From Dissulfuribacterales bacterium (lineage in GTDB: Bacteria; Desulfobacterota; Dissulfuribacteria; Dissulfuribacterales; DYLC01), in assembly GCA_041287365.1 (NCBI GenBank), contig JBEULL010000018.1, positions 240,908 to 304,907 on the forward strand: a DNA stretch of 64,000 nt, read 5' to 3'. Position numbers and translations under genes: made by a program. The notes beneath the pieces are model-generated. The model ran no database searches and was not told where the DNA came from. It saw only the letters and a list, made by a program, of their open reading frames with translations. This document shows, piece by piece, positions 36,262-62,782 of the stretch (position 1 is the stretch's first letter; each line of letters opens with the position of its first letter).

Positions 36262-37117
36262 ATATCTAAAAAATATATTTGGAGGTCGTGTTCAGAAGAT
36301 CCCGCTGGATGCAGGCCTCACCTGCCCAAACAGAGATGGTACCAAGGGAAAGGGCGGCTGTATATATTGCAACGAGACAGGCTCAGGTACAGGGGCCTTT
36401 TCCATGGGTAAAGACTTACACCAACAGATGGAAGACGGCATGAAATGGGCCAAGAGACGTTACAATGCCCAAATGTTCTTGGCATATCTTCAATCATTTT
36501 CAAATACATATGCGTCTATGGAACATCTGGCCGATATATATCGCGCTGCCTTAACGCCGGACGAGGTGGTGGGAATGAGTATAGCTACAAGACCTGACTG
36601 CATCGACAAGAAATGCCTGATGCTCATAAAGGAGATAGCCGGCCGAAAGATGGTCTGGATGGAGTATGGGCTTCAGAGCGCCAGCAACGCCACATTGAGG
36701 CGCATAAACCGCGGACACACATTTGAAGACTTCGTGCATGCGGTAACCATCACCCACGAACTCGGAATACCCGTTTGTTGCCACGTGATCTTCGGGCTGC
36801 CAGGTGAAACACAAGAGGATATGCAATACACCATAGAACGAGTGCGTGAATTGAAGGTGGATGGCATAAAATTTCATCAACTCTCGGTATTGAAGGGCAC
36901 ACCGCTTCAAAGACTGTGGGAGCGGGGCATATACCGGCCCATTTCTCAAGAGCTCTACACAGACCTGGTGACATGGGCCGTAAGACACCTCGGCAGCGAA
37001 TGTGTGATACACAGACTGACAGCCGACCATTCCGCAAACGTCCTGCTCGCCCCTGTCTGGTCCTTACAAAAGCATGAAATAATTAGAACAATACACAAAA
37101 AATTAGCATTGTCATAG
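36242..37117 (+). CDS. TIGR01212-family radical SAM protein
   Basis: GLTCPNRDGTKGKGGCIYCN motif and a family-typical length of 291 aa. 20-nt overlap with cca. Confidence 0.8.
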   Translation: MYLTLNEYLKNIFGGRVQKIPLDAGLTCPNRDGTKGKGGCIYCNETGSGTGAFSMGKDLHQQMEDGMKWAKRRYNAQMFLAYLQSFSNTYASMEHLADIYRAALTPDEVVGMSIATRPDCIDKKCLMLIKEIAGRKMVWMEYGLQSASNATLRRINRGHTFEDFVHAVTITHELGIPVCCHVIFGLPGETQEDMQYTIERVRELKVDGIKFHQLSVLKGTPLQRLWERGIYRPISQELYTDLVTWAVRHLGSECVIHRLTADHSANVLLAPVWSLQKHEIIRTIHKKLALS

Positions 37118-37188
37118 ACACAATATTTGTTTGACTATATGTGGTGTCTTTGATATCTTAAATTTCAGGATATATTTGGAGACAAAAG

Positions 37189-37278
37189 ATGAAATCCATC
37201 GGATTGTTATACATATTTCTCTTTTTACTCTACACCGGCATTGAAGCAGTCGAGTCCAGGGATATCCACCTTACATAG
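37189..37278 (+). CDS. possible 29-aa hydrophobic micro-ORF (MKSIGLLYIFLFLLYTGIEAVESRDIHLT)
   Basis: ATG with GGAG about 9 nt upstream and one predicted TM-like stretch. There is no other support. Confidence 0.2.
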   Translation: MKSIGLLYIFLFLLYTGIEAVESRDIHLT

Positions 37279-37500
37279 GAGGATAGAGACCACCCTTACA
37301 GCGGCAGTAATAGGTTTAGCTTACTGGGACAGATGCACTATCATCAGAAAGGCGCGAATACGGCTGTATGCTAAATAGAAGACAAATGGCGGCTAAACGA
37401 GCTCGTAAAAGCGCTAAGGCACTTGCCCCGCAGCGCTAAGGCCTTGCAGCCCTGCTGAAGACATTTCATATACGTTAACTGCACTATACCAAAACACTCA

Positions 37501-38844
37501 ATGGAAGAGATTCGACTTGTACATATAGGTGACTGCCAAGTCACTAAAGACCCTGATACCATACTCGAGACATGTCTTGGCTCGTGTGTAGGCATAGCCA
37601 TATACGACGCAGTCAGGCGTGTCGGCGGCATGTGCCACATTCTGCTGCCTGATGGCCCTGCTGAAAAGAAACATGCCAATCCCACCGCCTATGCCACTAC
37701 AGCGGTTCCATTCCTGCTGAACGCCTTTGAAGAGCTGGGAGGCGAGAGAAAAACAGCCGTCACTGCCATTGCGGGCGGCGCATCCATAATGACAAAGCAT
37801 TCAGGCGCAGACCTCAAGATAGGTCAGCGGAATCTGCTCGCTGTAATGGAAGGCCTGAGACATGCAGGTATCAAGATTTCATATGAACACGTGGCAGGTA
37901 ATCTGGGGCGTGTGATGCGCCTGTATATGCGAAACGGCCAGATTCACGTTCGCACATCCAGAATGCCCACACCAGAAGAGGCAGGGAGGCAGATAAATGA
38001 AAAATGGAATGCCAACGCCTTGTGCGCCTCAATCCTGCAGGGCGCTGAAGACATCAGGCCCAGTTCCAATGTGGCCATTCGCGCCCTTCAACTCGCCAAT
38101 GGCGAGGACACCAGCATTATTGAACTGGAACAGCTCATTCTTCATGACCAGGTGCTGGCTGCCAACATACTCAAGGAGGCCAATTCCGCCTACTACGGAC
38201 TTTCCAGACAGGTACATACCATCTCTCAGGCCATCGCATACCTTGGCATGAGGACCTTCAAAAAAATAGTTATGGATACATGTCTTGCTGACATGTACGC
38301 CAGGTGTATAAATACCTATGATATGGAAGAAGGGGCGTTTTTCTATCACTCCGTTACATGTGCCCGCATAAGCGAGACTATAGCCAAAGTAACGGGTCGC
38401 GTGGAGCCGGAGACAGCGTATCTGGCCGGTCTGCTGCATGACATCGGCAAGATCGTGATCGAACGTTACGGTACAGATCTGTTCACACAGGTTACGAGCA
38501 GGGTGCTGTTGAAAAACGAATCCTTCGTGCAGGCCGAAAAAGACGTGTTCGGCCTGGACCATGCGGCCATAGGCCAGTATATCGCTCGAAACTGGCAACT
38601 TCCGATGGCACTGGAGGAGGCGATAGCATTTCATCATGAGCCCGAAAACATGAATGTAATCTCACCTCTTCCCTGTATAGTTCATATCGCTGACCACATC
38701 TGCAATATAGCCGGAATAGGACTTTCCAACGATTCCATGATCAACGGACTGAGCCAAAGGGCCATCACAGCCCTGGCCCTTGATGAAGGGGCGATAGAGG
38801 ACATCCTTTCCGCTGTCCCGCGCATAATCCATGCACACTCATAA
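37501..38844 (+). CDS. cheD: CheD (chemoreceptor glutamine deamidase) fused to a C-terminal HDOD domain
   Basis: Residues 1-~155 are CheD-like (VHIGDCQVTKDPDTILETCLGSCVGIAIYD, VGGMCHILLPDG, with catalytic Cys and His contexts). Residues ~190-447 are HDOD-like (LHDQVLAANILKEANSAYYG, AIAYLG, GLLHDIGKIVI, AFHHEP). Confidence 0.8.
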   Translation: MEEIRLVHIGDCQVTKDPDTILETCLGSCVGIAIYDAVRRVGGMCHILLPDGPAEKKHANPTAYATTAVPFLLNAFEELGGERKTAVTAIAGGASIMTKHSGADLKIGQRNLLAVMEGLRHAGIKISYEHVAGNLGRVMRLYMRNGQIHVRTSRMPTPEEAGRQINEKWNANALCASILQGAEDIRPSSNVAIRALQLANGEDTSIIELEQLILHDQVLAANILKEANSAYYGLSRQVHTISQAIAYLGMRTFKKIVMDTCLADMYARCINTYDMEEGAFFYHSVTCARISETIAKVTGRVEPETAYLAGLLHDIGKIVIERYGTDLFTQVTSRVLLKNESFVQAEKDVFGLDHAAIGQYIARNWQLPMALEEAIAFHHEPENMNVISPLPCIVHIADHICNIAGIGLSNDSMINGLSQRAITALALDEGAIEDILSAVPRIIHAHS

Positions 38845-38849
38845 CGGAC

Positions 38850-39713
38850 ATGGAACCTGATCGCATCAATCATCTTAAACATCTTGTAGAACAACGCACG
38901 GGTTGCAGGTTTTCCAGCTACAATCCAGGGACATTTCAAAGAAGGCTTTTGCGGCGCATGTCCGCCCTCGGCATACACGACATAGACGCTTACGAGGCCT
39001 ATTTGCAAAAAAATCCTTCTGAATACCAGACACTTCTTCACTCCCTCACCATAAAGGTCAGCGAATTTTTCAGGGACACCGAGATTTTCAATCACATCGA
39101 ACAGCATATCATACCTGAAATCTTTGAAAGACACGCCCAGCAAAACGATCGCAACATCCGTATCTGGAGCACTGCCTGCGCCTATGGAGAGGAGGTGTAT
39201 TCCACAGCCATTCTGCTCTTTGAATACCTTCAGCGTATGGAGGAGCAGGAAAGAAAAAAATGGAATATCACACTACTGGGCACGGATATAGACCAAATGG
39301 CCGTAGAAAAGGCCAGGGAAGCCGTTTATAACATCAAATCCATGGAAGATGTTATCTCAGCACACCCAAACGCCTTTCAGCGCATCATCGGTATGCCTGA
39401 ACACATACAGGTCATTCCAGAGATTCAGGCCATGGCGCAGTTTGTATGTTTCGATATCACCACAGTGAAATATCTTGCACCACCCGTCGGCATCTTCACC
39501 GAGTACGACATCATCTATTGCAGAAACGTGCTCATCTATTATGATTATCAGCAGAAATTCGATACACTGCACAGACTTTATGAATGCCTGAATCCAGACG
39601 GTTATCTGGTGCTGGGGAAAGCGGAAAGCATGCCGGATGAACTTTTGAAATGCCTTGTCCCTGTGAAACATGGAATAAAAATCTATAAAAAAGGATTGGC
39701 TGCACATGGATAA
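38850..39713 (+). CDS. cheR: CheR-type protein-glutamate O-methyltransferase
   Basis: N-terminal helical domain (FQRRLLRRM, TIKVSEFFRD) and SAM-binding domain (IRIWSTACAYGEEVYS, DIIYCRNVLIYY). Starts 5 nt after cheD-HDOD. Confidence 0.85.
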   Translation: MEPDRINHLKHLVEQRTGCRFSSYNPGTFQRRLLRRMSALGIHDIDAYEAYLQKNPSEYQTLLHSLTIKVSEFFRDTEIFNHIEQHIIPEIFERHAQQNDRNIRIWSTACAYGEEVYSTAILLFEYLQRMEEQERKKWNITLLGTDIDQMAVEKAREAVYNIKSMEDVISAHPNAFQRIIGMPEHIQVIPEIQAMAQFVCFDITTVKYLAPPVGIFTEYDIIYCRNVLIYYDYQQKFDTLHRLYECLNPDGYLVLGKAESMPDELLKCLVPVKHGIKIYKKGLAAHG

Positions 39714-42525
39714 CAGCCCATTTCAGATATACGACGACCATGTTCTTGCCTATGAAGCGGTTTATCAGCTCTACATGCGCGCACCCACACCCATTCGCAT
39801 GATGGACATAAACTGTCATGTGCTCACTCAGAATCCTGCCATGGATGCCATGGTGGATATGAGCAATCCGGAAAGCCTTGGTAAAAAATGTTTTGAGATC
39901 ACTCATGCAGCGGGCTTATGCCACACGGAAAACTGCCCTCTTCGGCAGATAGCCTGCGGAGAGAACAAAAATCTCCTTTTGTTCTATGAATGTGAACTCT
40001 GGAATGGAACACAATTTCCGGCCAGAGTCATTTCATCGCCCTTCTACGATCAGAACGGCCATCTGGCTGGCATAGTGCAGACCATTCAAGACGACAGCCA
40101 TTATGTGGCCATGGCAAACGCCCTTGAACGAAAAAATCAGGAACTGGCCGCCAACTATCAGACACTGGAAAATCACTATAAGATCATAAGGCTTCTTCAC
40201 GAGGCCAATGAACTTTCAGAAATGGCACAGCGGCTTTTAACTATTCTCATCGAAAATACATCATCTGCAACGGGTGTGTTTTATATATGGAACCATAAGC
40301 GTGAAGTTCTGACCCCTCTGGCCTCTTACGCCTTATTCACAAATCCGCCTGAATTTAGCATGGGCCAGGGCATGCCAGGTCAGGCCGCCCAGTCAAAACA
40401 CACCCTTCTGCTGCAGAATCTGCCGGCTGACCATCTCAAGCTGAAAACCGGCGCCATGGATGCACAGCCATTCTCCATCATCTGTATTCCAATGTTTCTG
40501 CAGGACAAACTACTGGGAGTAATGGAGCTGGGCTCCTTCAACGACCTCTCCCTTCATAAGGACTATCTGGAAAACATACTGCCTCAGACCTGTCTTGCCA
40601 TTCAGAACGCCCTTAACACACAGGAGATTCTTCAACTCTCCAACACCATGAAGCAGCAAAACGAACAACTGAACGCCCAGAACGAGGAATTGCAGGCGCA
40701 GAGCGAAGAACTGCTGGCGCAAAGCGAAGAGATTCAGGCCCAGACAGAGGAACTCATGGCTCAGAGGGACGCCCTGGAAAAGAAGACCAAGGAGGCCGAA
40801 GAGGCCAATCGCATGAAGTCTATATTTCTCTCCAACATGTCCCACGAGCTGCGCACACCTCTCAATTCCATTCTCGGTCTGGCTCGTCTCATGCTGGACG
40901 ACTATCAGGTCACGCAGGACCAGCGTCACAAGGAATACCTGAATATCATACTCAGAAACGGCGAAAATCTGCTGGAGCTTATAAACGATATCCTGGACCT
41001 CACACGCATCGAATCAGGTAGAGAAGAGATGCGCTTCACTCCGGTCAAAACCAGAGACCTCATAGAAAAGCTGGGGCTTTCCATGGCTCCATTGGCCCAG
41101 AAAAAGGAACTCGCCTTTGAAATACAGACGGACGAAGCGCCTGAAACCATCGTGACAGACCAGCGGAGGCTCAACCAAATACTGACAAATCTCCTGGGGA
41201 ATGCCGTCAAATTCACGGAAAAAGGCAAAATAACCCTGAAATGCACGAAAAAAACAGCGGAAGATAGGGATTATATCGTCTTTTCGGTGATAGATACAGG
41301 CATAGGCATTCCCAAGGGATATGAAAAACTCATCTTCGAGCCCTTCAAACAGGTGGACGGATCATATACACGCAAATACGGCGGAACAGGACTCGGACTG
41401 AGCATATCACAGAAACTGGCTCAGATGCTGGGAGGTGAGATATCCGTCTTCAGTGAACTGGGCAAAGGCAGCAGCTTTACACTCACACTGCCTGTGGACA
41501 GACGCAGCAAGAACAGATTGCCCGACGAGGTCTGGAAAAAACGACTGAAGGCAGCCCTGCTGCCCAATATAAACAAATCGTCTGCAACACCTTCCACCAC
41601 TCCTGATACTACGAATGCAACAAAGGCAACGACTGCTCCAATCCCTTCTGGAGCGGACGTTTCATCTCTGCAGACTGCAAAAACCACTGAACGGCCTGTA
41701 ACATCGGCCATCACAAAGGACACGAACGGCCAAAGAATCTTACTGGTGGACGATGATATGCTGGTACTGAAGGAATTGGGGACTCGGCTCAAGTCATACG
41801 GCTATGAGGTATCCTATGCATTTGACGGCAATCTGGGGCTGAAACTCCTTTTGGATGAAAAACCAGGGCTTGTCCTGCTAGATCTTACCATGCCGGTCAT
41901 GGACGGATTTTCGTTCCTGCACGAGATGCAGAAACTGCCGGATGTATCTGAAATCCCTGTGATAATCCTGAGTGCGGCGGACATAGACAGTGATATGGAA
42001 AAACTGTTTCCGCCAAACGTCAAGGGTGTTTTGCAAAAAGGCAACATAAAGAGTCAGGAACTCATGACCTTCCTACAGAATACATTGTGCAGCGATGAAA
42101 AGCAGACAGAGGCGAACAAATCAGCCGATGATCCGGTAACGACTGACTGCAAACAAAACAGTAAAAAGATATTGATCGCTGAAGACAATCCAGACAATAT
42201 GTTTTTATTAAAAGAACTCTTGACGCCAAGAGGTTATATGGTGTTACATGCCGTAAACGGCAATGAGGCGGTGCAGATGGCTATGACTCAGCGGCCTGAT
42301 CTCATTCTCATGGACATTCAAATGCCGGAACTGAATGGACTGGACGCCACAAAGGCCATAAGAGAAAACGGCCTCAAGACCCCCATTATCGCCCTGACGG
42401 CAAAGGCCATGAAGGGCGACCGTGAACAGATTATAGAGGCCGGGTGTAATGATTATATATCCAAACCATTCACTCCAAATTCTCTTCTGCGCACTATCAG
42501 TTACTGGTTGAACCTAGAGCAATAA
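39706..42525 (+). CDS. hybrid sensor histidine kinase: Cys-rich PAS, GAF, heptad-repeat coiled coil, HisKA, HATPase, T/S/P-rich linker and two receivers
   Basis: H-box [11 protein letters not shown] boxes [26 protein letters not shown]1 LLVDDDM...DLTMPVMDG and REC2 [10 protein letters not shown]...[10 protein letters not shown]...LTAKA. Its ATG overlaps the cheR stop by 8 nt. Confidence 0.85.
40675..40764 (+). repeat. in-frame 21-nt periodic coding repeat (heptads AQNEELQ / AQSEELL / AQSEEIQ / AQTEELM / AQ)
   Basis: The units gcccagaacgaggaattgcag, gcgcagagcgaagaactgctg, gcgcaaagcgaagagattcag and gcccagacagaggaactcatg were read directly. Codon 324 of the kinase starts at 40675. Confidence 0.9.
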
Positions 42526-42541
42526 AAACACAGGACAAGAA

Positions 42542-43744
42542 ATGGAAAGTATTCTTACACCCTCGCTATCTAATATCAATACCGCCCAAAAGCGCCCCTG
42601 TATTCTGGTGGTGGAAGACCAACCGGACAATCTGTTTATTCTAAAAGAGGTGCTGGAACGCGGCAACTTTCAGGTCATAACAGCGAGAACCGGCGAAGAG
42701 GCCCTGGAAAAGATTCGCAATTCACGCGAAGAGATAGATCTCGTACTCTCCGACATCATGATGCCAGGCATCTCCGGCATAATGCTCTGCGAGACCATCA
42801 AGACGGATGTTGCCTCATCCCATATACCGGTGATGCTCATCACGTCCCTTTGTCTGGACGAAAAAGACGAAATCAAAGGCCGTGAGGCAGGCGCGGAGGA
42901 TTATCTTACCCGTCCCATCAACCCTGATCTGCTGCTTAAACGCATCAAGCGAATCCTGGAAACCAAAAAGACTATAGACTTCTGGAAGGGGGCCTATGAA
43001 GAAAAGGATCAGGCCCTGACCTCTCAGGAATGGAGCACCCGCATGCTAATCCATGACCTCAAAAACCCGCTTACAGGTGCAAGCGGTTATCTGACCCTTC
43101 TGGCCATGGACCCTGACATCACACCCAAACAGCGCAATCTCATTCAGAAGATACAGGTGGCATTACAACAGCAGACGGAGATGCTTCAGGACATGCTTTC
43201 CCTGGCCGCAGCCAAATTCGGCAGGCTCAGCCTGGAAAAGGAAACCTTTTCCCTTTGTGATGTATTGAAGGAAAACGTCTTTATGCAGCAAGGAGCGGCC
43301 ATGCAAAAGGGCATGGCCCTGCACACAGAGATATCGAAAGGCGCATGTATGGTCAAGGCGGACCGCAGACTCATAAAACGCGTCATAGCCAATCTGATCA
43401 TGAATTCCATCAAATATGGAGAACCGAACACTCCCATAGAGATACATCTGGGCGAGCAAAATGACAATCCATTCCTGCGGCGCCTGCCAGCGAACGATCA
43501 TATCTGGTTCAGCATCTCCAATGAGGCGCCTGTAATATCTCAAGAAGATCAGAGACGTATCTTCAAGCCCTTTGAACAGCAGCATGCCGGATCCGAGCAA
43601 AAATACGGACTCAAGGGCGCCGGCCTTGGCCTATGTTTCTGCCATGAGATCATAAAACTCCACGACGGCGAATTAGGCGTCATTTCACCTGTTCCAGGCC
43701 GGGACTCGGGCGTGGTCTTTTATTTCAGCCTTCCAAGGACATAA
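42542..43744 (+). CDS. response-regulator / histidine-kinase fusion (N-terminal REC, HisKA, HATPase)
   Basis: REC (ILVVEDQPDN...SDIMMPGISG...TS). H-box-like IHDLKNPLT. ATPase region (NLIMNSIKYG, GAGLGLCF). Confidence 0.8.
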   Translation: MESILTPSLSNINTAQKRPCILVVEDQPDNLFILKEVLERGNFQVITARTGEEALEKIRNSREEIDLVLSDIMMPGISGIMLCETIKTDVASSHIPVMLITSLCLDEKDEIKGREAGAEDYLTRPINPDLLLKRIKRILETKKTIDFWKGAYEEKDQALTSQEWSTRMLIHDLKNPLTGASGYLTLLAMDPDITPKQRNLIQKIQVALQQQTEMLQDMLSLAAAKFGRLSLEKETFSLCDVLKENVFMQQGAAMQKGMALHTEISKGACMVKADRRLIKRVIANLIMNSIKYGEPNTPIEIHLGEQNDNPFLRRLPANDHIWFSISNEAPVISQEDQRRIFKPFEQQHAGSEQKYGLKGAGLGLCFCHEIIKLHDGELGVISPVPGRDSGVVFYFSLPRT

Positions 43745-43759
43745 TTCCTCAACCCATCA

Positions 43760-45106
43760 GTGATGCTCAAAAGCCGGTTCAACCCATCCCAGATACTACT
43801 GTTGGGCTTTACAACCATCATCGGAGTAGGTGCCATTCTTCTTAAATTGCCGATTTCCACTCGACACGGTATCTCAACTGTGGATGCCCTTTTTACTGCA
43901 ACCTCTGCTGTCTGTGTCACTGGACTTATAGTCAAGAACACGCCTGTAGACTTCACTCTGTTTGGCCAGATAGTGATACTGCTGCTCATTCAGATAGGCG
44001 GCCTCGGATACATGACCTCCACCACCCTGATTTTTTTGATGATGGGAAAGAAAATCGACATCAAAGACCGTTTTCTCCTAAAGGAATCCATGAATCTCAT
44101 AAGCATGGAAGGCGTGGTCAAATTCGTAAAGCATGTGCTGACCGTTACCTTAATCATAGAACTTCGTGTACTTCTACTCTCTTTTTGCTTTCTACCCTAC
44201 ATGCCTTGGCGAAAAGCAGTTTATTACGGCCTATTCCATTCCATATCCGCCTTCAACAACGCCGGATTCAGCCTATTTCCCGACAATTTAATGAAATTCA
44301 AAACAAGTATGAGCATAAATCTGATTATCTCGCTGCTCATCATTGCAGGTGGAATAGGCTTTTTAGTGCTATGGGAACTCAAAAACAGATGGAATCTTCG
44401 AGCAAAGGACAGAGAACTGCTCTCCATGCACGCCAAAACCGTTTTGGGCACCACCGGCCTGCTGATTCTCGCCGGCGCTGTGCTGATTCTGCTTTTCGAA
44501 CGCAATAATCCAGACTCCATGGCCGGCCTTTCTCTGCCGTATCAATTTCTTGCCGCATTTTTTGCTTCAATTACGGCGCGAACCGCTGGTTTCAACACAT
44601 TGGACTATGCCTCCCTTACACCGGAGACTCTATTTCTCACCATAGTTCTTATGTTCATAGGCGCCTCTCCTGGTGGCACAGGTGGAGGTGTCAAGACCAC
44701 CACTATTGCCGTGGTGCTGACAAGCATGTTCGCCACCATTCGAGGAGAGGAACAGACAGTACTCTTCAAAAGGGCTGTTCCTTCAAGTGTTATCTCAAAA
44801 TCCATGCTTATAGTGGTACTGGGGGCCATCTTTGTAATCGTTGCATCTATCTTGATTCTGCACTTTGAAAACAGCCGCTACCTTTCCATTCTCTTTGAAG
44901 TGACATCGGCCATAGGCACTGTGGGACTTTCCGTGGGGGATGGAGGTGTGCGCAGCCTTTCGGCCACATTTTCTCCACTTGGAAAAATGATAATCTCATT
45001 TATCATGCTTGCAGGTAGAATCGGACCCTTGACACTTGCATGCGCCTTTTTTGAACAAAAAGGCAAACGATATCGATATCCGAAAGGAAGGATTGCCATA
45101 GGATGA
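43760..45106 (+). CDS. TrkH/KtrB-family potassium transporter membrane subunit
   Basis: Polytopic protein with repeated selectivity-filter-like motifs (TGL, IGGLG, NAGF, TAGF, GGTGGG, GTVGLS). Starts 15 nt after the REC-kinase gene. Confidence 0.85.
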   Translation: MMLKSRFNPSQILLLGFTTIIGVGAILLKLPISTRHGISTVDALFTATSAVCVTGLIVKNTPVDFTLFGQIVILLLIQIGGLGYMTSTTLIFLMMGKKIDIKDRFLLKESMNLISMEGVVKFVKHVLTVTLIIELRVLLLSFCFLPYMPWRKAVYYGLFHSISAFNNAGFSLFPDNLMKFKTSMSINLIISLLIIAGGIGFLVLWELKNRWNLRAKDRELLSMHAKTVLGTTGLLILAGAVLILLFERNNPDSMAGLSLPYQFLAAFFASITARTAGFNTLDYASLTPETLFLTIVLMFIGASPGGTGGGVKTTTIAVVLTSMFATIRGEEQTVLFKRAVPSSVISKSMLIVVLGAIFVIVASILILHFENSRYLSILFEVTSAIGTVGLSVGDGGVRSLSATFSPLGKMIISFIMLAGRIGPLTLACAFFEQKGKRYRYPKGRIAIG

Positions 45107-45771
45107 AAAAACAATACGCAGTCATCGGGTTGGGGCGTTTCGGTTATTCCGTTGCAAAGACCCTGACAGAACTCGGTGAAGACGTGATTGCCATAGACAA
45201 CAACGAGGAGCGAGTGCGAAAGATAGCCGATTTTGTAACCGAATCGGTGGTGATGGACGCCCTGGATGAAAAGGCATTGCGCTCCATCGGTTTACAGAAC
45301 GTGGATGTGGCCGTAGTCAGCATCGGTGAAAATATAGAGGCCAGCATTTTAGTAGTAATGATTCTCAAGGAGATGGGTGTGCAAAACATCATAGCCAAGG
45401 CGGTCACATCCCTGCATGGCAAGGTGCTCGAAAATTTGAACGTAACTCGCATCGTATATCCTGAAAGAGACATGGCCGTGCGTGTAGCACAGCAACTGGC
45501 CAGGCCCACCATTTTGGAACACTTGGAACTTTCTCCTGAATACAGTATCATCGAGATTCCAGCCCCTTCCTTTGTAGCCGGCCGCATGCTGAGAGACACT
45601 GGGCTGCGCAACAAATATGGCATAAACCTCATAGCGATTCGTCGCAGGAAATCAGAGACTGGCCTCACTGAATGGAATGTCAATCCGGCGCCAACAGACA
45701 TCATTCAACCTGAGGACATTCTGGTGGTCATAGGCTCCAATACCGATCTGGAGCGGCTGAACAACGCCTGA
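45103..45771 (+). CDS. TrkA/KtrA-family K+ uptake regulatory subunit (RCK N- and C-domains)
   Basis: Rossmann motif VIGLGRFG followed by a TrkA-C-like C-terminus. ATGA overlap with the membrane subunit gene. Confidence 0.85.
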   Translation: MKKQYAVIGLGRFGYSVAKTLTELGEDVIAIDNNEERVRKIADFVTESVVMDALDEKALRSIGLQNVDVAVVSIGENIEASILVVMILKEMGVQNIIAKAVTSLHGKVLENLNVTRIVYPERDMAVRVAQQLARPTILEHLELSPEYSIIEIPAPSFVAGRMLRDTGLRNKYGINLIAIRRRKSETGLTEWNVNPAPTDIIQPEDILVVIGSNTDLERLNNA

Positions 45772-45806
45772 TTTTCAATGATTTTGAAAGGAACTGTATC
45801 AAAAAT

Positions 45807-48533
45807 ATGTCACTCTCAACTGACTTGACAACAACGGACACACAAACAAATTCCTCTAAACCCACTGCACTCCAAACCGCTCCTATTGATAAATCTTATG
45901 AATTTCAGGAAGTTGAGGCCAAGTGGCTGAATGACTGGGCTCAGGCAGGGCTCTCGATAGCCACCATGGACTCAACCAAACCCTGTTTTTCCATGGTCAT
46001 TCCACCTCCCAACGTCACAGGTGTGCTGCACATCGGGCATGCCCTGAACAACACGCTTCAGGATATCTTGATTCGCTACAAGCGCATGGATGGATATAAT
46101 ACCCTCTGGGTACCAGGGACCGACCATGCAGGTATCGCCACTCAAAACGTCGTAGAACGGCAGCTGGCTCAGGAAGGTCTTTCTCGTCATAAATTGGGTA
46201 GAGAGGCCTTCATTCAGCGGGTCTGGGAATGGAAGGCCAAAAGTGGAGGACGCATTCTCGAACAGCTCAAGCGACTGGGCTGTTCCTGCGACTGGTCACG
46301 CGAGCGCTTCACCTTTGACGAAGGTCTGTCATTAGCCGTAAAAGAGGTCTTTGTGCGGCTCTACGAAGAAGGCCTCATTTATAAAGGAGATTACATAATC
46401 AACTGGTGCCCCCGTTGCCACACGGCCTTGGCGGATATAGAAGTGGAACACGAACCACAGGAAGGCTGCATCTGGCGCCTCAAATACCCTCTCAAGGATG
46501 AGACCGGCTATGTGGTAGTGGCCACCACTCGGCCAGAGACCATGCTGGGAGACACCGCTGTGGCGGTAAATCCCAACGATGCCAGGTATGCTCATCTCAT
46601 CGGTAAAGAGCTGATGCTGCCTCTTGTCAACAGGCCCATTCCCATCATAGCCGACGATACGGTGGACATGGAATTCGGAACAGGTGCCGTGAAGATCACA
46701 CCGGCCCATGACTTCAATGACTTTGAAACAGGACTGCGCCACAATCTGCCTGTGATCAACATCTTTGACACCTCTGCACACGTCAATGAAAACGGCGGCA
46801 AATACCAGGGGATGGACCGCTACGAGGCCAGAAAACGCATTTTGGAAGACATGTCGGCCATTGGTCTGTTGGAAGCAGAGGAAAAACATAGCCTTGCCAT
46901 CGGCGGATGTTACCGCTGCAAGACAGTGGTGGAGCCTCGTATCTCCAAACAGTGGTTCGTGCGCACTCAACCCCTGGCCCAAAAGGCATTGGCGGCAGTA
47001 AGAGAGAAAGAGACGGTCATACTGCCTGCATCCTGGGAAAAGACCTACGAGGAATGGATGACCAACATCAAGGACTGGTGTATCTCCCGTCAGATCTGGT
47101 GGGGGCATCGCATTCCTGCCTGGACATGTAAGACCTGCGGCGAGACCATAGTGGCCAAAGATACTCCAACTGCCTGCACAAAATGCAACTCCACAGACCT
47201 GGAACAGGAGACGGACGTGCTGGACACCTGGTTCAGTTCCGCACTTTGGCCGTTTTCCACTCTGGGATGGCCTGAAAAAACCAGGGAACTGGAAATGTTT
47301 TATCCAACCTCCGTGCTCATCACCAGCTTCGATATCCTCTTTTTTTGGGTGGCACGCATGCTCATGATGGGCATTCATTTCATGGAGGAAGTGCCGTTCA
47401 GGTATGTCTATCTCCATGCCCTGGTAAGAGACAGCCAGGGGCAGAAGATGAGCAAATCCAAAGGCAATGTCATAGACCCCTTGACGGTCATGGAAAAATA
47501 CGGCACAGACGCGGTGCGCATGACCCTTACCGCTCTGGCTGCTCAAGGCAGGGACATCAAGCTGGCGGAGGACCGTATCGAAGGCTACCGCCACTTCATC
47601 AACAAGATATGGAACGCCACTCGTCTGGTACTCATGAATGTAAATGACTCATTTGAACCGTTGAAAGACCCTGAATCATTAATTCCAAGAGCTTTGAAAG
47701 ATAAGTGGATCTTGGCCAGACTCGGCAAACTCATTCAAAGCACACGCCACAATCTGGACAACTTCGAGTTCGACGAGGCTGCGCGAGGATTGTATCACTT
47801 CTTCTGGCACGAATACTGCGATTGGTATCTGGAACTGGCAAAACCCGCATTTCAAAGCCTGAACGACCAGGAGAGAAGGATTACGCAACAGACGGCCATC
47901 ACTGTGCTCGATATCTGTCTCAGACTGCTCCACCCCATTATTCCTTTTGTAACAGAGGAATTATGGCATAACCTACCGGGTTCATCAGGCCACATCATGA
48001 CAGCGGAATTTCCCAGACCTGTGCCTGCCTGGCAAAATGAGACTGCTGAGGCGCAAATGCAGGAGCTCATCGAGATCATCACCGGCATTCGCAACCTGCG
48101 CTCCGAATTCAACATACACCCTGGTATCAGGCTCAAGGTTCAGGTTTTTCCTCATGATGATGGTATCCGTGAGCTGTTTTCCGCACAAAAAACGCATCTG
48201 TTAGCATTAGCTAAACTTGAGACCATAGATTTCTATGATACCTCGCAGCCAAGGCCCAAAAACGCCGCATCCGTGATTCTAAAGGACGTAGAGATATTCA
48301 TTCCCCTGAAGGACGTGATAGATCTGGCTGGCGAATTGAAAAAACTGCAAAAAGAGGAAGAAAAGCTGCTGAATGACCTGCAAAAGACACAGGCCAAGCT
48401 GAACAATGCGGACTTCATGGCCAGGGCGCCTCAGGAGATTAGAGAAAAGGAGCAACAGCGCTTTACTGATATAGAGACCCGTTTGAAACGCATTAAAGAT
48501 CATAAGGCCACATTGAGCACCATCGAGACATGA
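45807..48533 (+). CDS. valS: valine--tRNA ligase
   Basis: HIGH (PPNVTGVLHIGHAL), KMSKS, an editing-domain insert and a C-terminal coiled coil. 908 aa. Confidence 0.95.
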   Translation: MSLSTDLTTTDTQTNSSKPTALQTAPIDKSYEFQEVEAKWLNDWAQAGLSIATMDSTKPCFSMVIPPPNVTGVLHIGHALNNTLQDILIRYKRMDGYNTLWVPGTDHAGIATQNVVERQLAQEGLSRHKLGREAFIQRVWEWKAKSGGRILEQLKRLGCSCDWSRERFTFDEGLSLAVKEVFVRLYEEGLIYKGDYIINWCPRCHTALADIEVEHEPQEGCIWRLKYPLKDETGYVVVATTRPETMLGDTAVAVNPNDARYAHLIGKELMLPLVNRPIPIIADDTVDMEFGTGAVKITPAHDFNDFETGLRHNLPVINIFDTSAHVNENGGKYQGMDRYEARKRILEDMSAIGLLEAEEKHSLAIGGCYRCKTVVEPRISKQWFVRTQPLAQKALAAVREKETVILPASWEKTYEEWMTNIKDWCISRQIWWGHRIPAWTCKTCGETIVAKDTPTACTKCNSTDLEQETDVLDTWFSSALWPFSTLGWPEKTRELEMFYPTSVLITSFDILFFWVARMLMMGIHFMEEVPFRYVYLHALVRDSQGQKMSKSKGNVIDPLTVMEKYGTDAVRMTLTALAAQGRDIKLAEDRIEGYRHFINKIWNATRLVLMNVNDSFEPLKDPESLIPRALKDKWILARLGKLIQSTRHNLDNFEFDEAARGLYHFFWHEYCDWYLELAKPAFQSLNDQERRITQQTAITVLDICLRLLHPIIPFVTEELWHNLPGSSGHIMTAEFPRPVPAWQNETAEAQMQELIEIITGIRNLRSEFNIHPGIRLKVQVFPHDDGIRELFSAQKTHLLALAKLETIDFYDTSQPRPKNAASVILKDVEIFIPLKDVIDLAGELKKLQKEEEKLLNDLQKTQAKLNNADFMARAPQEIREKEQQRFTDIETRLKRIKDHKATLSTIET

Positions 48534-54586: not shown

Positions 54587-56007
54587 AACCAGAGCCAGTT
54601 ACTCCGCAAAAACTATTGATAATTGACGACGAACCGGACCTGTTGCTGGGTCTGAAGCGTCTGTTGCAGCCTTATTTCAGGCAGGTTCAGGTAATGACAG
54701 CCGAATCGCCTCACACCGCATTGGAACTCATTAAAAATGAGACCGTGAATGTAGTACTGAGCGATATTCGTATGCCAGGCATGGATGGAATGGCCCTGCT
54801 TCAAATGCTGAAGAAGAACGCAGCTCCTCCTACCGTAGTGCTCATGACCGCCTATGGCACCATAGATCTGGCCATCGATGCCTTAAAGCAGGGTGCCTAT
54901 GACTTTCTCACCAAACCATTGGACGAAGACAGGCTTGTTCACACTCTGCAAAAGGCCCTGGAGCGCCAGCAACTGCTGGAAAAGACCTCGCTTCTGGAAA
55001 AAGAGTTGCATCAAAGAAAAGGACTTGCCGATACATTCATCGGCACCAGCCCTGCCCTCAAGAAGGCTATAGATACCATCGCCCTTGCCGCCGGAACCGA
55101 TGTCCCTGTGCTCATAACCGGCGAAAGCGGCACAGGAAAAGAACTGGCTGCAAAGGCCCTGCATTCATGGAGTAACCGCAGCGCCCACGAATTTGTTGCC
55201 ATCAACTGCGCCGCCATGCCCGCAGAACTCCTGGAAAGCGAGCTCTTCGGTCACAAAAAAGGGGCATTCACTCATGCCATAGCCGATAAAAAGGGGCTTT
55301 TCGAACTTGCCGATAAGGGTACCCTCTTTCTCGATGAAATAGGAGATATGCCCCTTACGCTTCAAGCCAAACTACTGCGTGTGCTGCAAGAGGGAGAGAT
55401 TCGTCCCATTGGAGACAACCACACCAGAAAGGTGGATGTTCGAGTTATAGCTGCTACAAATAAACCCATCAAAACCATGTTGGAACGAGAGGAATTCCGG
55501 CAGGACCTCTTCTTCAGGCTCAATGTCATCGAGATACAGATGCCTCCATTGCGAGAGATGCGGGAAGACATTCCCATCCTGGCGCAACACTTTTTGCAAC
55601 AATTTTTGAAGGAAACCGGCATGCCTCCCAAAACCTTTTCAAGAGAGGCCCTGATTCAGCTTTCCACCTGGCATTGGCCTGGAAATGTCAGGGAACTTCA
55701 AAACTTGGTGAAACGGGCTGCCATTTTCAGCTCAGGTGACACGATTCTACCGGAAGACCTGCAGATTCCAGCCAAACGCGGCTGTGCCGGCGGAGACTTA
55801 AACGGCCTGGTGAACATGCAGTATCATGAGGCCAAAGAAACGGTCATGCGTACCTTCACAACGCAGTATCTCACTCAAATACTGAGGTCCACCAACTGCA
55901 ACATCACACTGGCCGCCAAGCGCTGCGGCCTCGAACGCCAGTCCCTGCAACAGCTCATTCGACGCTATGGAATCAGTGTGGACGAAATAAAAAACACTGC
56001 AAACTAA
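54583..56007 (+). CDS. sigma-54-dependent response regulator (NtrC family: REC, AAA+ and Fis-type HTH)
   Basis: REC (LLIIDDEPD...SDIRMPGMDG). AAA+ with GESGTGKE, the GAFTHA (GAFTGA-like) loop, and ELFGH. C-terminal HTH. ATGA-type 4-nt overlap with the kinase. Confidence 0.9.
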   Translation: MKPEPVTPQKLLIIDDEPDLLLGLKRLLQPYFRQVQVMTAESPHTALELIKNETVNVVLSDIRMPGMDGMALLQMLKKNAAPPTVVLMTAYGTIDLAIDALKQGAYDFLTKPLDEDRLVHTLQKALERQQLLEKTSLLEKELHQRKGLADTFIGTSPALKKAIDTIALAAGTDVPVLITGESGTGKELAAKALHSWSNRSAHEFVAINCAAMPAELLESELFGHKKGAFTHAIADKKGLFELADKGTLFLDEIGDMPLTLQAKLLRVLQEGEIRPIGDNHTRKVDVRVIAATNKPIKTMLEREEFRQDLFFRLNVIEIQMPPLREMREDIPILAQHFLQQFLKETGMPPKTFSREALIQLSTWHWPGNVRELQNLVKRAAIFSSGDTILPEDLQIPAKRGCAGGDLNGLVNMQYHEAKETVMRTFTTQYLTQILRSTNCNITLAAKRCGLERQSLQQLIRRYGISVDEIKNTAN

Positions 56008-61154: not shown

Positions 61155-61604
61155 TCAGGCGCATTTTTCCTTCTGACACTCAGAATTCAGGGGATACTGT
61201 ACTGGATAACTATTGGGATCCAAAACCACCTGCATGCCCAGCCGCTTTTCTGTATTGATCACCACAGGGCCCAGCAGATTAGCCGTGATGCATTTTGGGT
61301 TGTCCTTTGGAATGGTTACAATGAGCAATGTCTCGGCCTGTTCAGCAGTTGTCATTTCCAGTTCCTCCTGAACATTATCGGGTATATCGAACACGTAGTC
61401 GGCCAGACACACAGAAGGGGTGATGGCCACAAATGCCAGTTCAGGCATGTCCACGCTCTGCAACCAGAAAAAAGGAGAATCTTGTCTGTGCGGAATGAGC
61501 ACATAACGCTTCTGTTCAGGGAAACCAAGTATACCGTGTTTGAACAGAATGATGTCCTGGTCAGTGATATCGAGTGTGCCAAAACGCATTGTTTCTAGTT
61601 TCAT
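61155..61604 (-). CDS. fliW: flagellar assembly factor FliW
   Basis: MKLETMRFGTLDITDQDIILFKHGILGFPE...FFWLQS. AAGGAGG SD upstream of ATG 61604. The track start at 61661 would overlap csrA. Confidence 0.85.
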   Translation of the reverse strand: MKLETMRFGTLDITDQDIILFKHGILGFPEQKRYVLIPHRQDSPFFWLQSVDMPELAFVAITPSVCLADYVFDIPDNVQEELEMTTAEQAETLLIVTIPKDNPKCITANLLGPVVINTEKRLGMQVVLDPNSYPVQYPLNSECQKEKCA

Positions 61605-61605
61605 T

Positions 61606-61839
61606 TCATTCCTCCTTTGTGGAAACGATGGCATCCAATGCCTGAATATCCGCTGGGGCATCGGCCGCCAATCTGTTCTGTTCCTGAATACGAAGATAAA
61701 TCTCGTGTCTCAAAATAGATGTATTGGATGGAGCGATTATTCCCAACTTCACCTGGTTGTTTCGAATCTCCAGCACCTTGATCTCTATGTCATCACCTAT
61801 GCAAATCTTTTCCTCTACCTTTCGTGTCAATATCAGCAT
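61606..61839 (-). CDS. csrA: carbon storage regulator CsrA (FliW-partnered type)
   Basis: [37 protein letters not shown]...ILRHEIY. Confidence 0.9.
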
Positions 61840-61866
61840 GGCAGCCTCCCTGCTTCCATTATGGTC

Positions 61867-62766: not shown

Positions 62767-62782
62767 GTTAATTCACCTCCTG

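What the first reader, a model, noticed from the sequence alone, without database searches (positions are those of the whole stretch)
40651..40770. Four consecutive heptads in the kinase signalling helix each fit the chemoreceptor methylation-site consensus
Residues 324-352 of the hybrid kinase read [29 protein letters not shown].

Every 8-residue window ([32 protein letters not shown]) fits the pattern I recall for MCP methylation sites, [ASTG]-x-x-[EQ]-[EQ]-x-x-[ASTG]. The E-E pairs are spaced exactly 7 residues apart, like the site spacing on Tar/Tsr-type receptors. Each heptad also carries a Gln, and the preceding turn is QQNEQLNAQ. These Gln residues are potential CheD Gln-to-Glu substrates.

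The array sits in the coiled coil between the GAF domain and the DHp, about 28 residues before the phospho-accepting His (SHELRTPLN). Charge changes there could plausibly bias kinase output. The DNA shows a matching 21-nt periodicity.

The adjacent genes encode exactly the enzymes that write such marks.
Basis: partly seen in the sequence, partly recalled or inferred. Interest (0 to 1): 0.8.

Follow-up and report, generated by a model that had tools for sequence, protein, structure and literature searches.

The report
Methyl-accepting helix in a sensor kinase
A bacterial sensor kinase carries four to five Glu-Glu heptad repeats just before its phosphorylated histidine; these are almost certainly the target of the CheR methyltransferase encoded next to it, a known but little-studied arrangement.

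Summary
Residues 324-352 of the 939-aa hybrid kinase (39706-42525, +) read [29 protein letters not shown]. These are the protein's only four matches to the chemoreceptor methylation consensus. They lie in one predicted helix running from the GAF domain to His380.

The array is a family hallmark, not chance. It is conserved in about 115 homologues, and its exposed Glu-Glu, Gln and Ala positions are as invariant as the core Leu. A cheR gene lies directly beside the array-bearing gene in 15 of 16 contexts, including one protein with a SpoIIE phosphatase output instead of a kinase. In an independent set of 62 kinase loci, cheR is adjacent in 21/24 with heptad-spaced EE(L/I) runs against 3/38 without (p about 2e-10).

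The idea is not new. [quoted passage not shown] In Bacillus cereus, the CheR-type RsbM was shown to methylate the signalling helix of the homologous kinase RsbK.

What differs here is a conserved CheD-HDOD fusion in place of CheB, and a separate clade of upstream CheRs. Methylation itself is untested.

The parts
37501..38844 (+). CheD-HDOD fusion protein (447 aa): N-terminal CheD deamidase/methylesterase-type domain and C-terminal HDOD/HDIG domain. Candidate eraser or regulator of the marks.
   Evidence: Pfam CheD 2.7e-22, HDOD 1.9e-52, HD 2.5e-16. It aligns to T. maritima CheD 2F9Z at E 1.9e-21 with the catalytic Cys and His in place. T24, C29 and H46 are invariant in 7 module-linked homologues. 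NCBIfam: nearest CheD equivalogs are below cut-off; HDIG is above cut-off.
38850..39713 (+). CheR-family protein-glutamate O-methyltransferase (287 aa). Its stop overlaps the kinase start by 8 nt. Candidate writer.
   Evidence: Pfam CheR_N 1.8e-13 and CheR 6.6e-39. Full-length match to Salmonella CheR 1BC5/1AF7 at E 2.4e-29 with conserved SAM-domain motifs. It falls in a clade made only of CheRs lying upstream of array-bearing proteins.
39706..42525 (+). Hybrid sensor kinase (939 aa): PAS-like domain, GAF, long helix with the array, HisKA, HATPase_c, REC, REC.
   Evidence: AlphaFold2 model, mean pLDDT 81. 100% identical to a protein of a Dissulfuribacterales MAG (P0003).
40207..40554 (+). GAF domain (residues 168-283).
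   Evidence: Pfam GAF_2 4.5e-11.
40579..40899 (+). Single continuous predicted helix (residues 292-398) joining GAF to DHp helix 1 and containing the array and His380.
   Evidence: DSSP on the AlphaFold2 model gives H292-398. Block pLDDT is about 69-90 in a monomer model.
40660..40764 (+). Five in-register heptads (residues 319-353): NEQLNAQ / NEELQAQ / SEELLAQ / SEEIQAQ / TEELMAQ. This is the putative methyl-accepting array. The four strict consensus matches are residues 324-352 (nt 40675-40761).
   Evidence: Conservation in 115 unique homologues: Glu-Glu pairs 3.4-4.25 bits, Gln(g) 3.2-4.1, Ala(f) 2.2-3.5, Leu(d) 3.1-4.25, out of 4.32. The segment 316-354 has 9 acidic and 1 basic residue.
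40843..40845 (+). Codon of the phospho-accepting His380 (H-box SHELRTPLN).
   Evidence: The distance from the last Glu-Glu pair to His is constant across homologues.
42542..43744 (+). REC-HisKA-HATPase protein (400 aa), 16 nt downstream of the kinase. A conserved fourth gene of the module.
   Evidence: An equivalent REC-HK gene follows the kinase in L082, L084, L085 and L171, with larger REC-PAS-HK genes in L088, L089 and L170.

Best explanation
The kinase is a CheR-dependent sensor kinase with a methyl-accepting coiled coil, of the kind called MAC and exemplified by RsbK.

Anatomy (shown): four to five heptads of (N/S/T)-E-E-(L/I)-x-A-Q sit on the helix that carries the sensory signal from the GAF domain into the DHp. 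The last pair is a fixed 31 residues before His380.

Register (inferred): with Leu at position d, the Glu-Glu pairs fall at the exposed b and c positions and Ala at f. This is the same register as the E. coli Tar methylation helix.

Mechanism (inferred):
- The translationally coupled CheR methylates one Glu of each pair, using SAM.
- The stretch carries 9 acidic and 1 basic residue per chain, which in a parallel dimer should be mutually repulsive.
- Each methyl ester removes one negative charge. This should stabilise or re-pack the helix pair and shift the balance between kinase and phosphatase activity. The direction of the effect is unknown.
- In B. cereus RsbK, methylation of the equivalent helix represses signalling together with the C-terminal REC domain.
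- The CheD-HDOD protein most likely removes the methyl groups, in place of the CheB found in other branches of this group of CheR-linked kinases. That would make the mark reversible. The HDOD/HDIG domain could couple this activity to another input.
- The signal then passes to the two REC domains and the downstream REC-HK.

Shown here: the anatomy, the conservation, the gene linkage and the homology to RsbK-type kinases. Inferred: methylation of this protein, which residue is modified, the sign of the effect, and the role of CheD.
For: 1. Family-wide conservation. All of about 120 best homologues (32-86% identity) carry the array at a fixed distance from the H-box, despite different sensor modules: PAS-GAF, HAMP-PAS-GAF, dCache-HAMP-GAF and 4HB_MCP-GAF.

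2. Exposed residues are as conserved as the core. E335, E342 and E349 score 4.1-4.25 of 4.32 bits and Gln(g) up to 4.07. A merely structural coiled coil would not be expected to show this. It points to recognition by a partner.

3. Gene linkage. cheR lies immediately next to the array protein in the window, L001 and L003, and in 12/12 contexts fetched without knowing what flanked each gene: P0032, P0023, P0041, P0077, P0090, P0121, P0117, P0035, P0111, P0132, P0137 and P0128.
- These span Thermodesulfobacteriota, Chloroflexota (Anaerolineae) and Gemmatimonadota, and also include Geopsychrobacter.
- P0132 has a SpoIIE phosphatase output instead of a kinase, so CheR follows the array and not the kinase domain.
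- P0246 fuses a CheR domain to an array and a GAF domain.

4. Independent test. 80 kinase loci were fetched with generic H-box patterns. In the 62 with at least 1.5 kb on both sides, cheR lies 0-391 nt away in 21/24 with two or more heptad-spaced EE[LIMV] and in 3/38 with one or none (Fisher p = 1.8e-10).

5. The window CheR belongs to a clade containing only CheRs upstream of array proteins. It is separate from che-operon CheRs, including that of E. coli.

6. Experimental precedent. RsbM, encoded in one operon with rsbK, methylates the S-helix of the CHASE3-HAMP-GAF-S-helix-HK-REC kinase RsbK and represses sigma-B signalling (PMC4574943; PMC12848376).
- The window kinase is 33% identical (E 9e-101) to Bacillales kinases of that architecture.
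- The arrays align: [26 protein letters not shown].

7. Enzyme integrity. CheR matches Salmonella CheR over its full length. The CheD Cys and His are intact.

8. One 107-residue helix is predicted from the GAF domain through the array to His380.
Against: - There are no biochemical data for this protein or for its CheR clade.
- The window also encodes a conventional MCP (58507-60966, -) with a consensus site and flagellar genes. CheR and CheD could therefore have ordinary chemoreceptor substrates in this organism.
- The 10-residue MCP consensus is not met.
- Array-like heptads without a cheR neighbour exist in L012, L048 and L066, and degenerate ones in many actinobacterial kinases. The motif can therefore persist without CheR.
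- The association statistics are not corrected for shared ancestry.
- CheD-HDOD fusions are not specific to this module. More distant ones (about 30% identity) sit next to selA with no CheR or kinase nearby.
- Four array proteins have CheR but no CheD or CheB nearby.
- B. cereus RsbK itself was not retrieved. The homology shown is to Bacillales kinases of the same architecture.
Confidence: 0.72

Rival explanations
1. The array is only a structural signalling-helix motif of this kinase family. The adjacent CheR and CheD-HDOD act on conventional chemoreceptors, and are linked to the kinase for regulatory reasons, for example because the kinase controls chemotaxis adaptation.
For: The genome encodes MCPs and flagella. 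One MCP with a consensus site (SATEEQTA) lies 16 kb away. Heptad-like EEL motifs occur in kinases without cheR (L012, L048, L066 and many actinobacterial loci). Only one CheR is seen in the 64-kb window.
Against: - cheR follows the array even when the output is a SpoIIE phosphatase.
- cheR is linked to arrays across phyla and across sensor types, in 15 of 16 contexts.
- None of these modules has cheA or cheW beside it.
- The window CheR belongs to a clade separate from che-operon CheRs.
- The exposed Glu-Glu, Gln and Ala positions are near-invariant.
- In B. cereus the equivalent CheR paralogue methylates the kinase (PMC4574943).
Confidence: 0.1
2. The array is a docking or decoy site. It binds CheR and/or CheD without being modified. 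This would either recruit them or titrate them away from chemoreceptors, as CheC mimics a receptor to hold CheD, so that the kinase reads or sets enzyme availability.
For: The array resembles the substrate motif, which would also suit a pseudo-substrate. In established knowledge, CheC carries a receptor-like motif that inhibits CheD (Chao et al. 2006, recalled, not read here). All pair positions are Glu rather than a Gln/Glu mixture.
Against: An all-Glu array with an intact CheR is just what a methyl acceptor looks like. The copy number varies from 2 to 9 heptads, as expected if the number of sites is tunable. RsbK is actually methylated (PMC4574943).
Confidence: 0.08
3. This is the reader's variant: CheD's main job here is Gln-to-Glu deamidation of the conserved heptad Gln residues or of the preceding QQNEQ turn, creating or tuning the charges.
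For: Gln at position g is almost invariant (3.2-4.1 bits). One in-register E-Q pair (E320-Q321) precedes the array in the window. The CheD catalytic residues are conserved.
Against: - The g-position Gln lies outside the E/Q pair of the recognised motif.
- It is just as conserved in array proteins with no CheD nearby, such as P0121, P0111, P0132 and P0137.
- Position 321 varies across homologues (L, E, K, D, Q).
- Gln at the pair positions is seen in only 1-3% of sequences.
Confidence: 0.07

Closest known systems
Bacillus cereus RsbK-RsbM (sigma-B stress module): a hybrid kinase with a 'methylatable signalling helix' and its CheR-type methyltransferase
   Same: - GAF, then a long helix with heptad-spaced QxEEL repeats, then HisKA-HATPase-REC.
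- A CheR-family gene in the same operon.
- Homologous sequence: 33% identity, E 9e-101, to Bacillales kinases of RsbK architecture, with the arrays aligned.
- Methylation of the helix by RsbM is reported and represses signalling together with the REC domain (PMC4574943).
   Different: - RsbK is membrane-bound with CHASE3-HAMP. The window kinase has a cytoplasmic PAS-like domain plus GAF and two REC domains.
- In the Bacillales the array lies about 35 residues further from the His. Here it lies 31 residues before it.
- In the Bacillales RsbK-type loci examined here, cheR lies downstream of the kinase and belongs to another CheR clade.
- RsbM is described as an orphan methyltransferase with no esterase. 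Here a CheD-HDOD gene is part of the module.
- The partner is a REC-HK, not the RsbY PP2C phosphatase.
[quoted passage not shown]
   Same: [quoted passage not shown] The window locus fits the MAC2 description in having a separate adjacent CheR.
   Different: - The descriptions I could read name CheB and CheR as partners. This locus has CheD-HDOD and no CheB.
- The original paper (PMC3401578) and the MiST MAC HMMs were not available, so formal membership could not be tested.
- Only one CheR fusion (P0246), and no CheB-CheR fusion, appeared among 140 newly retrieved proteins among the top profile hits.
Adaptation region of methyl-accepting chemotaxis proteins (E. coli Tar/Tsr) with CheR/CheB, and CheD in Bacillus and Thermotoga
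   Same: - Glu/Gln pairs at heptad spacing, followed by x-x-Ala.
- Same inferred register: pair at b/c, Ala at f.
- Same enzyme families next door.
   Different: - No MCPsignal hairpin domain, and no CheW or CheA coupling.
- The array lies on a parallel helix feeding directly into a DHp, not in an antiparallel four-helix bundle.
- All pairs are Glu-Glu.
- The outer small residues of the 10-residue consensus are replaced by Gln.

Membership tests
RsbK/RsbM-type kinase with methylatable signalling helix | Sensor protein with a GAF domain followed by a long helix bearing heptad-spaced Glu pairs ahead of the output domain | tested here: met
RsbK/RsbM-type kinase with methylatable signalling helix | CheR-family methyltransferase gene in the same operon | tested here: met
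   CheR at 38850-39713 overlaps the kinase start by 8 nt. The linkage is conserved in 15/16 contexts.
RsbK/RsbM-type kinase with methylatable signalling helix | Sequence homology to RsbK | tested here: inconclusive
   33% identity, E 9e-101, to Priestia megaterium P0364 and other Bacillales CHASE3-HAMP-GAF-HK-REC kinases. B. cereus RsbK itself was not among the sequences retrieved.
RsbK/RsbM-type kinase with methylatable signalling helix | C-terminal receiver domain (inhibitory in RsbK) | tested here: met
   Two REC domains, about residues 676-795 and 822-931. Their function was not tested.
RsbK/RsbM-type kinase with methylatable signalling helix | Glu residues of the helix are methylated by the CheR paralogue | not testable with these tools
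   Needs mass spectrometry or a labelled-SAM assay.
MAC2 (Wuichet and Zhulin 2010; MiST3) | Match to the MiST MAC2 profile HMM, or placement of CheR in the MAC2 clade | not testable with these tools
   The HMMs and the original paper were not available. The rough NJ tree shows the window CheR in an array-linked clade distinct from both the kinase-CheR-CheB clade and che-operon CheRs.
MAC2 (Wuichet and Zhulin 2010; MiST3) | Associated with both CheB- and CheR-related proteins (as summarised) | tested here: not met
   CheR is present. No CheB catalytic domain is found in the 64-kb window: the E. coli CheB query hits only a REC domain at 54691-54918. CheD-HDOD is there instead. CheB is also absent from all fetched contexts of this clade.
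Methyl-accepting chemotaxis protein (MCP) | MCPsignal (PF00015) hairpin domain | tested here: not met
   No MCPsignal hit in the kinase. The Tar signalling-domain query hits only the separate MCP near 59.6-59.9 kb.
Methyl-accepting chemotaxis protein (MCP) | Methylation-site consensus | tested here: inconclusive
   The 8-residue form is met four times. The 10-residue form [ASTG][ASTG]xx[EQ][EQ]xx[ASTG][ASTG] is met zero times.
CheD (chemoreceptor glutamine deamidase/methylesterase) | CheD fold with the catalytic Cys-His (and Thr) | tested here: met
   Aligns to 2F9Z with Cys and His matched. The Thr is displaced by one position in the pairwise alignment, but T24 is invariant in the clade. Scores fall below the NCBIfam equivalog cut-offs, so it is a divergent CheD.

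The most novel reading that the evidence does not exclude
This CheR clade, its PAS/GAF or HAMP-GAF kinases and the CheD-HDOD fusion form a self-contained, reversible adaptation circuit for an ordinary two-component kinase. CheR writes methyl esters on the helix just before the phospho-His. CheD erases them, taking the role of CheB. The HDOD/HDIG domain gates erasure through a second input. The result would be a chemotaxis-style methylation memory with no MCP, CheA or CheW. It would also give the first assigned partner and function for a CheD-HDOD protein.
Probability: 0.3. Interest if true: 0.7.

Novelty: new variant of a known kind. Interest (0 to 1): 0.45.

Why it matters
Glutamate methylation as an adaptation memory is textbook for chemoreceptors, but outside them it is barely explored. 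According to a 2022 survey, MAC proteins had not been characterised experimentally. B. cereus RsbK is the only worked example I found.

This locus and its relatives supply three things:
- A compact, soluble kinase in which the sites sit 31 residues from the phospho-His. It therefore needs no membrane reconstitution.
- A clear and testable set of target residues.
- A candidate eraser, CheD-HDOD, which the Bacillus system lacks.

Together these would allow a direct test of how charge neutralisation on a signalling helix sets kinase output.

The survey here also shows how far the rule extends. The array and CheR travel together across at least three phyla, five sensor architectures and two output types.

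Tried and rejected
- **Coil-only homologue search.** A word-index search with the 84-residue coil peptide gave only 8 candidates and 2 hits. The full-length protein was used instead.
- **Primary MAC paper.** Wuichet and Zhulin 2010 could not be read by PMC id or PubMed id. MAC is therefore cited second-hand.
- **Reverse test.** I asked whether every CheD-HDOD sits beside an array kinase. It does not. The metagenome scan returned more distant fusions (about 30% identity) next to selA, TPR and SIS genes, and separate cheD plus HDOD genes inside ordinary che operons. CheD-HDOD is therefore not diagnostic of the module.
- **CheB-CheR fusions.** I expected the array profile to pull out CheB-CheR-fused (MAC1) proteins as fusion evidence. 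Only one CheR fusion (P0246) appeared among the 140 newly retrieved proteins among the top hits. My recollection that MAC1 coils read STNEELQS was not verified.
- **Promoter and terminator scan** of 36900-46000. Counts equal the shuffled expectation, so it is uninformative.
- **NCBIfam.** There is no family-specific model for the kinase. The best hits are generic hybrid kinases below cut-off.
- **Chance coincidence.** Rejected on the family-wide conservation.
- **Recent DNA repeat expansion.** The DNA copies are only 69% alike.
- **Coding on the minus strand.** Rejected, because the conserved kinase reading frame is on the + strand.
Full report
**1. The observation**

The ORF 39706-42525 (+) encodes a 939-aa hybrid kinase. 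Pfam and an AlphaFold2 model give this order: a PAS-like domain, GAF (168-283), a long helix, HisKA (371-438), HATPase_c (484-598) and two receiver domains.

- Shuffled sequences give about one match anywhere.
- The same pattern recovers all four classical E. coli Tar sites, three of them at heptad spacing, so it is a fair proxy.
- A fifth heptad in register (NEQLNAQ, 319-325) precedes the four.
- The DNA shows a 21-nt period over 40662-40766, with copies only 69% alike. The repeat is therefore old and is maintained at the protein level.

The neighbours are as described:
- A CheD-HDOD fusion at 37501-38844.
- A full-length CheR at 38850-39713, whose stop overlaps the kinase start by 8 nt.
- A REC-HisKA-HATPase protein at 42542-43744.

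The model predicts one uninterrupted helix from residue 292 to 398. It runs from the end of GAF through the array into the helix bearing His380.

**2. The array is a family hallmark**

The window protein is identical to one from a Dissulfuribacterales metagenome-assembled genome. All of the 120 best homologues listed, at 31-100% identity, carry the same array at a fixed distance from the H-box. Their sensor modules differ: PAS-GAF, HAMP-PAS-GAF, dCache-HAMP-GAF or 4HB_MCP-GAF.

In 115 unique sequences the information content, out of 4.32 bits, is:

| Position | Bits |
|---|---|
| Glu-Glu pairs | 3.4-4.25 |
| Gln after Ala | 3.2-4.1 |
| Ala | 2.2-3.5 |
| Core Leu/Ile | 3.1-4.25 |

If Leu is placed at position d, the Glu pairs fall at the exposed b and c positions and Ala at f. 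This is the register I read in Tar (E301-E302-T-A-A-S-M / E308-Q309-L-T-A-T-V). Exposed positions that are as conserved as the core point to recognition by another protein.

The stretch 316-354 has nine acidic residues and one basic. The number of heptads varies between homologues from 2 to 9, always in whole heptads.

A profile of the array found 2,688 proteins at E <= 1e-3 among 1.84 billion cluster representatives. Those checked were mostly 4HB/CHASE3-HAMP-GAF-array-HisKA-HATPase-REC kinases.

**3.

First, I looked up contexts for twelve array proteins. I chose them for contig length and diversity, without knowing what flanked each gene.
- All twelve have a cheR gene immediately beside the array gene: P0032, P0023, P0041, P0077, P0090, P0121, P0117, P0035, P0111, P0132, P0137 and P0128.
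- For P0128 only the C-terminal end of CheR survives at the contig edge.
- With the window, L001 and L003, that makes 15 contexts.
- The one exception, L002, has only 943 nt upstream.
- P0132 is CHASE3-HAMP-GAF-array-SpoIIE, a phosphatase and not a kinase, and it still has cheR directly upstream.
- P0246 fuses a CheR domain to an array and a GAF domain.

CheR therefore follows the array and not the kinase domain.

Second, a scan of one genome per species with generic H-box patterns returned 80 GAF/HAMP hybrid-kinase loci.
- Twenty-five have cheR, always 0-391 nt from the kinase. Sixteen of these also have cheB.
- Among the 62 loci with at least 1.5 kb on both sides, cheR is present in 21 of 24 whose pre-H-box helix has two or more heptad-spaced EE(L/I/M/V).
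- It is present in 3 of 38 with one or none (Fisher p = 1.8e-10).
- This p value is not corrected for shared ancestry. The pattern does recur across at least six phyla: Bacteroidota, Pseudomonadota, Cyanobacteria, Bacillota, Actinomycetota and Gemmatimonadota.
- Exceptions exist. L012, L048 and L066 have arrays without cheR, and many actinobacterial kinases keep a degenerate two-heptad remnant.

**4. What is already known**

The idea is in the literature.
[quoted passage not shown] A 2022 preprint states they had not been characterised experimentally. MiST3 carries HMMs for them. I could not read the original paper.
- Independently, B. cereus RsbK (CHASE3-HAMP-GAF-S-helix-HK-CA-REC) was shown to be methylated on its signalling helix by RsbM, encoded in one operon with rsbK.
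  - Methylation represses sigma-B signalling together with the REC domain.
  - 127 RsbK-like kinases in 10 phyla are mentioned.
  - RsbM is called an orphan methyltransferase with no cognate esterase (PMC4574943).
  - A genomic association between RsbK and CheR was noted earlier (PMC12848376).
- From memory of the 2012 abstract, not read here, the preferred sites were Glu439 and Glu446, seven residues apart.

The window kinase is 33% identical (E 9e-101) over GAF-helix-kinase-REC to Bacillales kinases of RsbK architecture. Their helix reads [26 protein letters not shown] and aligns with the window array. B. cereus RsbK itself was not among the sequences retrieved.

**5. What differs here**

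- **A separate CheR clade.** In a rough neighbour-joining tree of 50 CheRs, the window enzyme falls in a clade made only of CheRs upstream of AQxEEL-array proteins. This clade is separate from the one holding the kinase-then-CheR(-then-CheB) loci with their Bacillales RsbM-like members. It is also separate from che-operon CheRs, including that of E. coli.
- **CheD-HDOD in place of CheB.** No context in this clade has CheB. Ten of the 14 contexts whose flanks were long enough to tell have a CheD-HDOD fusion. It lies upstream of cheR in eight (window, L001, L003, P0032, P0023, P0041, P0077, P0035) and downstream of the kinase in two (P0090, P0117).
- **CheD looks intact.** The CheD domain aligns to T. 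maritima CheD with the catalytic Cys and His. T24, C29 and H46 are invariant in the clade. NCBI labels its Thermotoga CheD model a deamidase/methylesterase. The HDOD part passes the HDIG cut-off.
- **No prior description found.** No paper in the searchable library contains both "CheD" and "HDOD".
- **CheD-HDOD is not exclusive to this module.** More distant fusions sit beside selA with no CheR or kinase. Separate cheD and HDOD genes lie side by side in ordinary che operons.

**6. The Gln proposal**

The heptad Gln sits at position g, outside the Glu/Gln pair that CheB and CheD act on.
- It is equally invariant in array proteins with no CheD nearby.
- Gln at the pair positions occurs in only 1-3% of sequences.
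- The one in-register E-Q pair of the window (E320-Q321) is variable in homologues.

If CheD acts on this kinase, demethylation is the likelier reaction. This is inference.

**7. Mechanism and rivals**

Most likely (about 0.7):
- CheR methylates one Glu per pair on a strongly acidic, parallel two-helix segment that links GAF to the DHp.
- Each methyl ester removes one charge and changes helix packing, and so changes kinase output.
- CheD-HDOD reverses the mark.
- The signal passes to the REC domains and the downstream REC-HK.

The anatomy, conservation, linkage and homology are shown. Modification of this protein, the site, the sign of the effect and the role of CheD are inferred.

Rivals:
- CheR and CheD serve the organism's conventional MCPs, one of which lies in the window. 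This does not explain the linkage to the phosphatase-output protein, the absence of cheA and cheW beside the modules, or the conserved exposed residues.
- The array is a decoy or docking site. This cannot be excluded without biochemistry.

**8. Verdict**

The main interpretation is well supported by comparative data and by precedent, though it remains unproven for this protein.

The system is a variant of a known kind (MAC, RsbK/RsbM). It is distinguished by its CheR clade, by the array lying 31 residues before the phospho-His, and by the conserved CheD-HDOD partner.

Noticed in passing
L090 7968-9329, L095 7992-9359 (also L091-L100, L102); L101, L109, L116, L122, L128, L157: CheD and HDOD recur together outside this module. 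They occur as orphan CheD-HDOD fusions next to selA, TPR and SIS genes with no CheR or kinase nearby. They also occur as separate adjacent cheD and HDOD genes inside ordinary cheA-cheW-cheR-...-cheB operons. No paper in the searchable library mentions both terms.
   Followed up: partly
L173 1528-5406: A CheR gene is followed directly by a CHASE3-HAMP-GAF-array-SpoIIE (PP2C phosphatase) protein and then a STAS/HATPase_c_2 protein. This looks like a partner-switching output under the same array-plus-CheR input.
   Followed up: partly
window 43760-45771 (+); L170 14409-15408; L171 1603-1938: TrkH and TrkA potassium-uptake genes follow the REC-HK with gaps of 15 nt and an overlap, so they may share the operon. 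Trk genes also lie near two homologous modules. This may hint at the physiological input or output.
   Followed up: no
window 58507-60966 (-): An 819-aa MCP has a C-terminal bacteriohemerythrin domain and one consensus methylation site (SATEEQTA at 443). It is followed by fliW, flgL and flgK at 61155-63961 (-). The organism is therefore probably flagellated and chemotactic.
   Followed up: partly
P0168 (292 aa); P0136, P0203, P0228, P0235: The heptad copy number varies widely, from 2 to 9. P0168 has nine near-perfect GQNEELA/V repeats and no recognisable kinase or sensor domain.
   Followed up: no
P0246 (763 aa): A single protein has a partial CheR SAM-binding domain (131-226), then a five-heptad array (from about residue 449), then a GAF domain (530-641). 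It is the only CheR-array fusion among the 140 newly retrieved proteins among the top profile hits.
   Followed up: partly
L085 11746-11994; L087 10547-11176; L171 5315-6004: Several modules contain small ORFs with only a HisKA domain (82 aa) or REC-HisKA without an ATPase domain (209-229 aa). These may be phosphotransfer or phosphatase-only partners.
   Followed up: no
window 17392-17895 (-): A second HDOD-like coding region lies elsewhere in the window, 29% identical to the HDOD part of the CheD-HDOD protein over 173 residues.
   Followed up: no
L004, L006-L009, L012-L014, L019, L029, L044, L068 (Streptomyces, Nonomuraea, Actinomadura and relatives): Large actinobacterial GAF kinases keep a two-heptad remnant (ERSDELQRQQEELRRSNAELE) in the same helix but have no cheR within 10 kb. 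This may be a relic of the array after loss of CheR, or an ancestral form.
   Followed up: no
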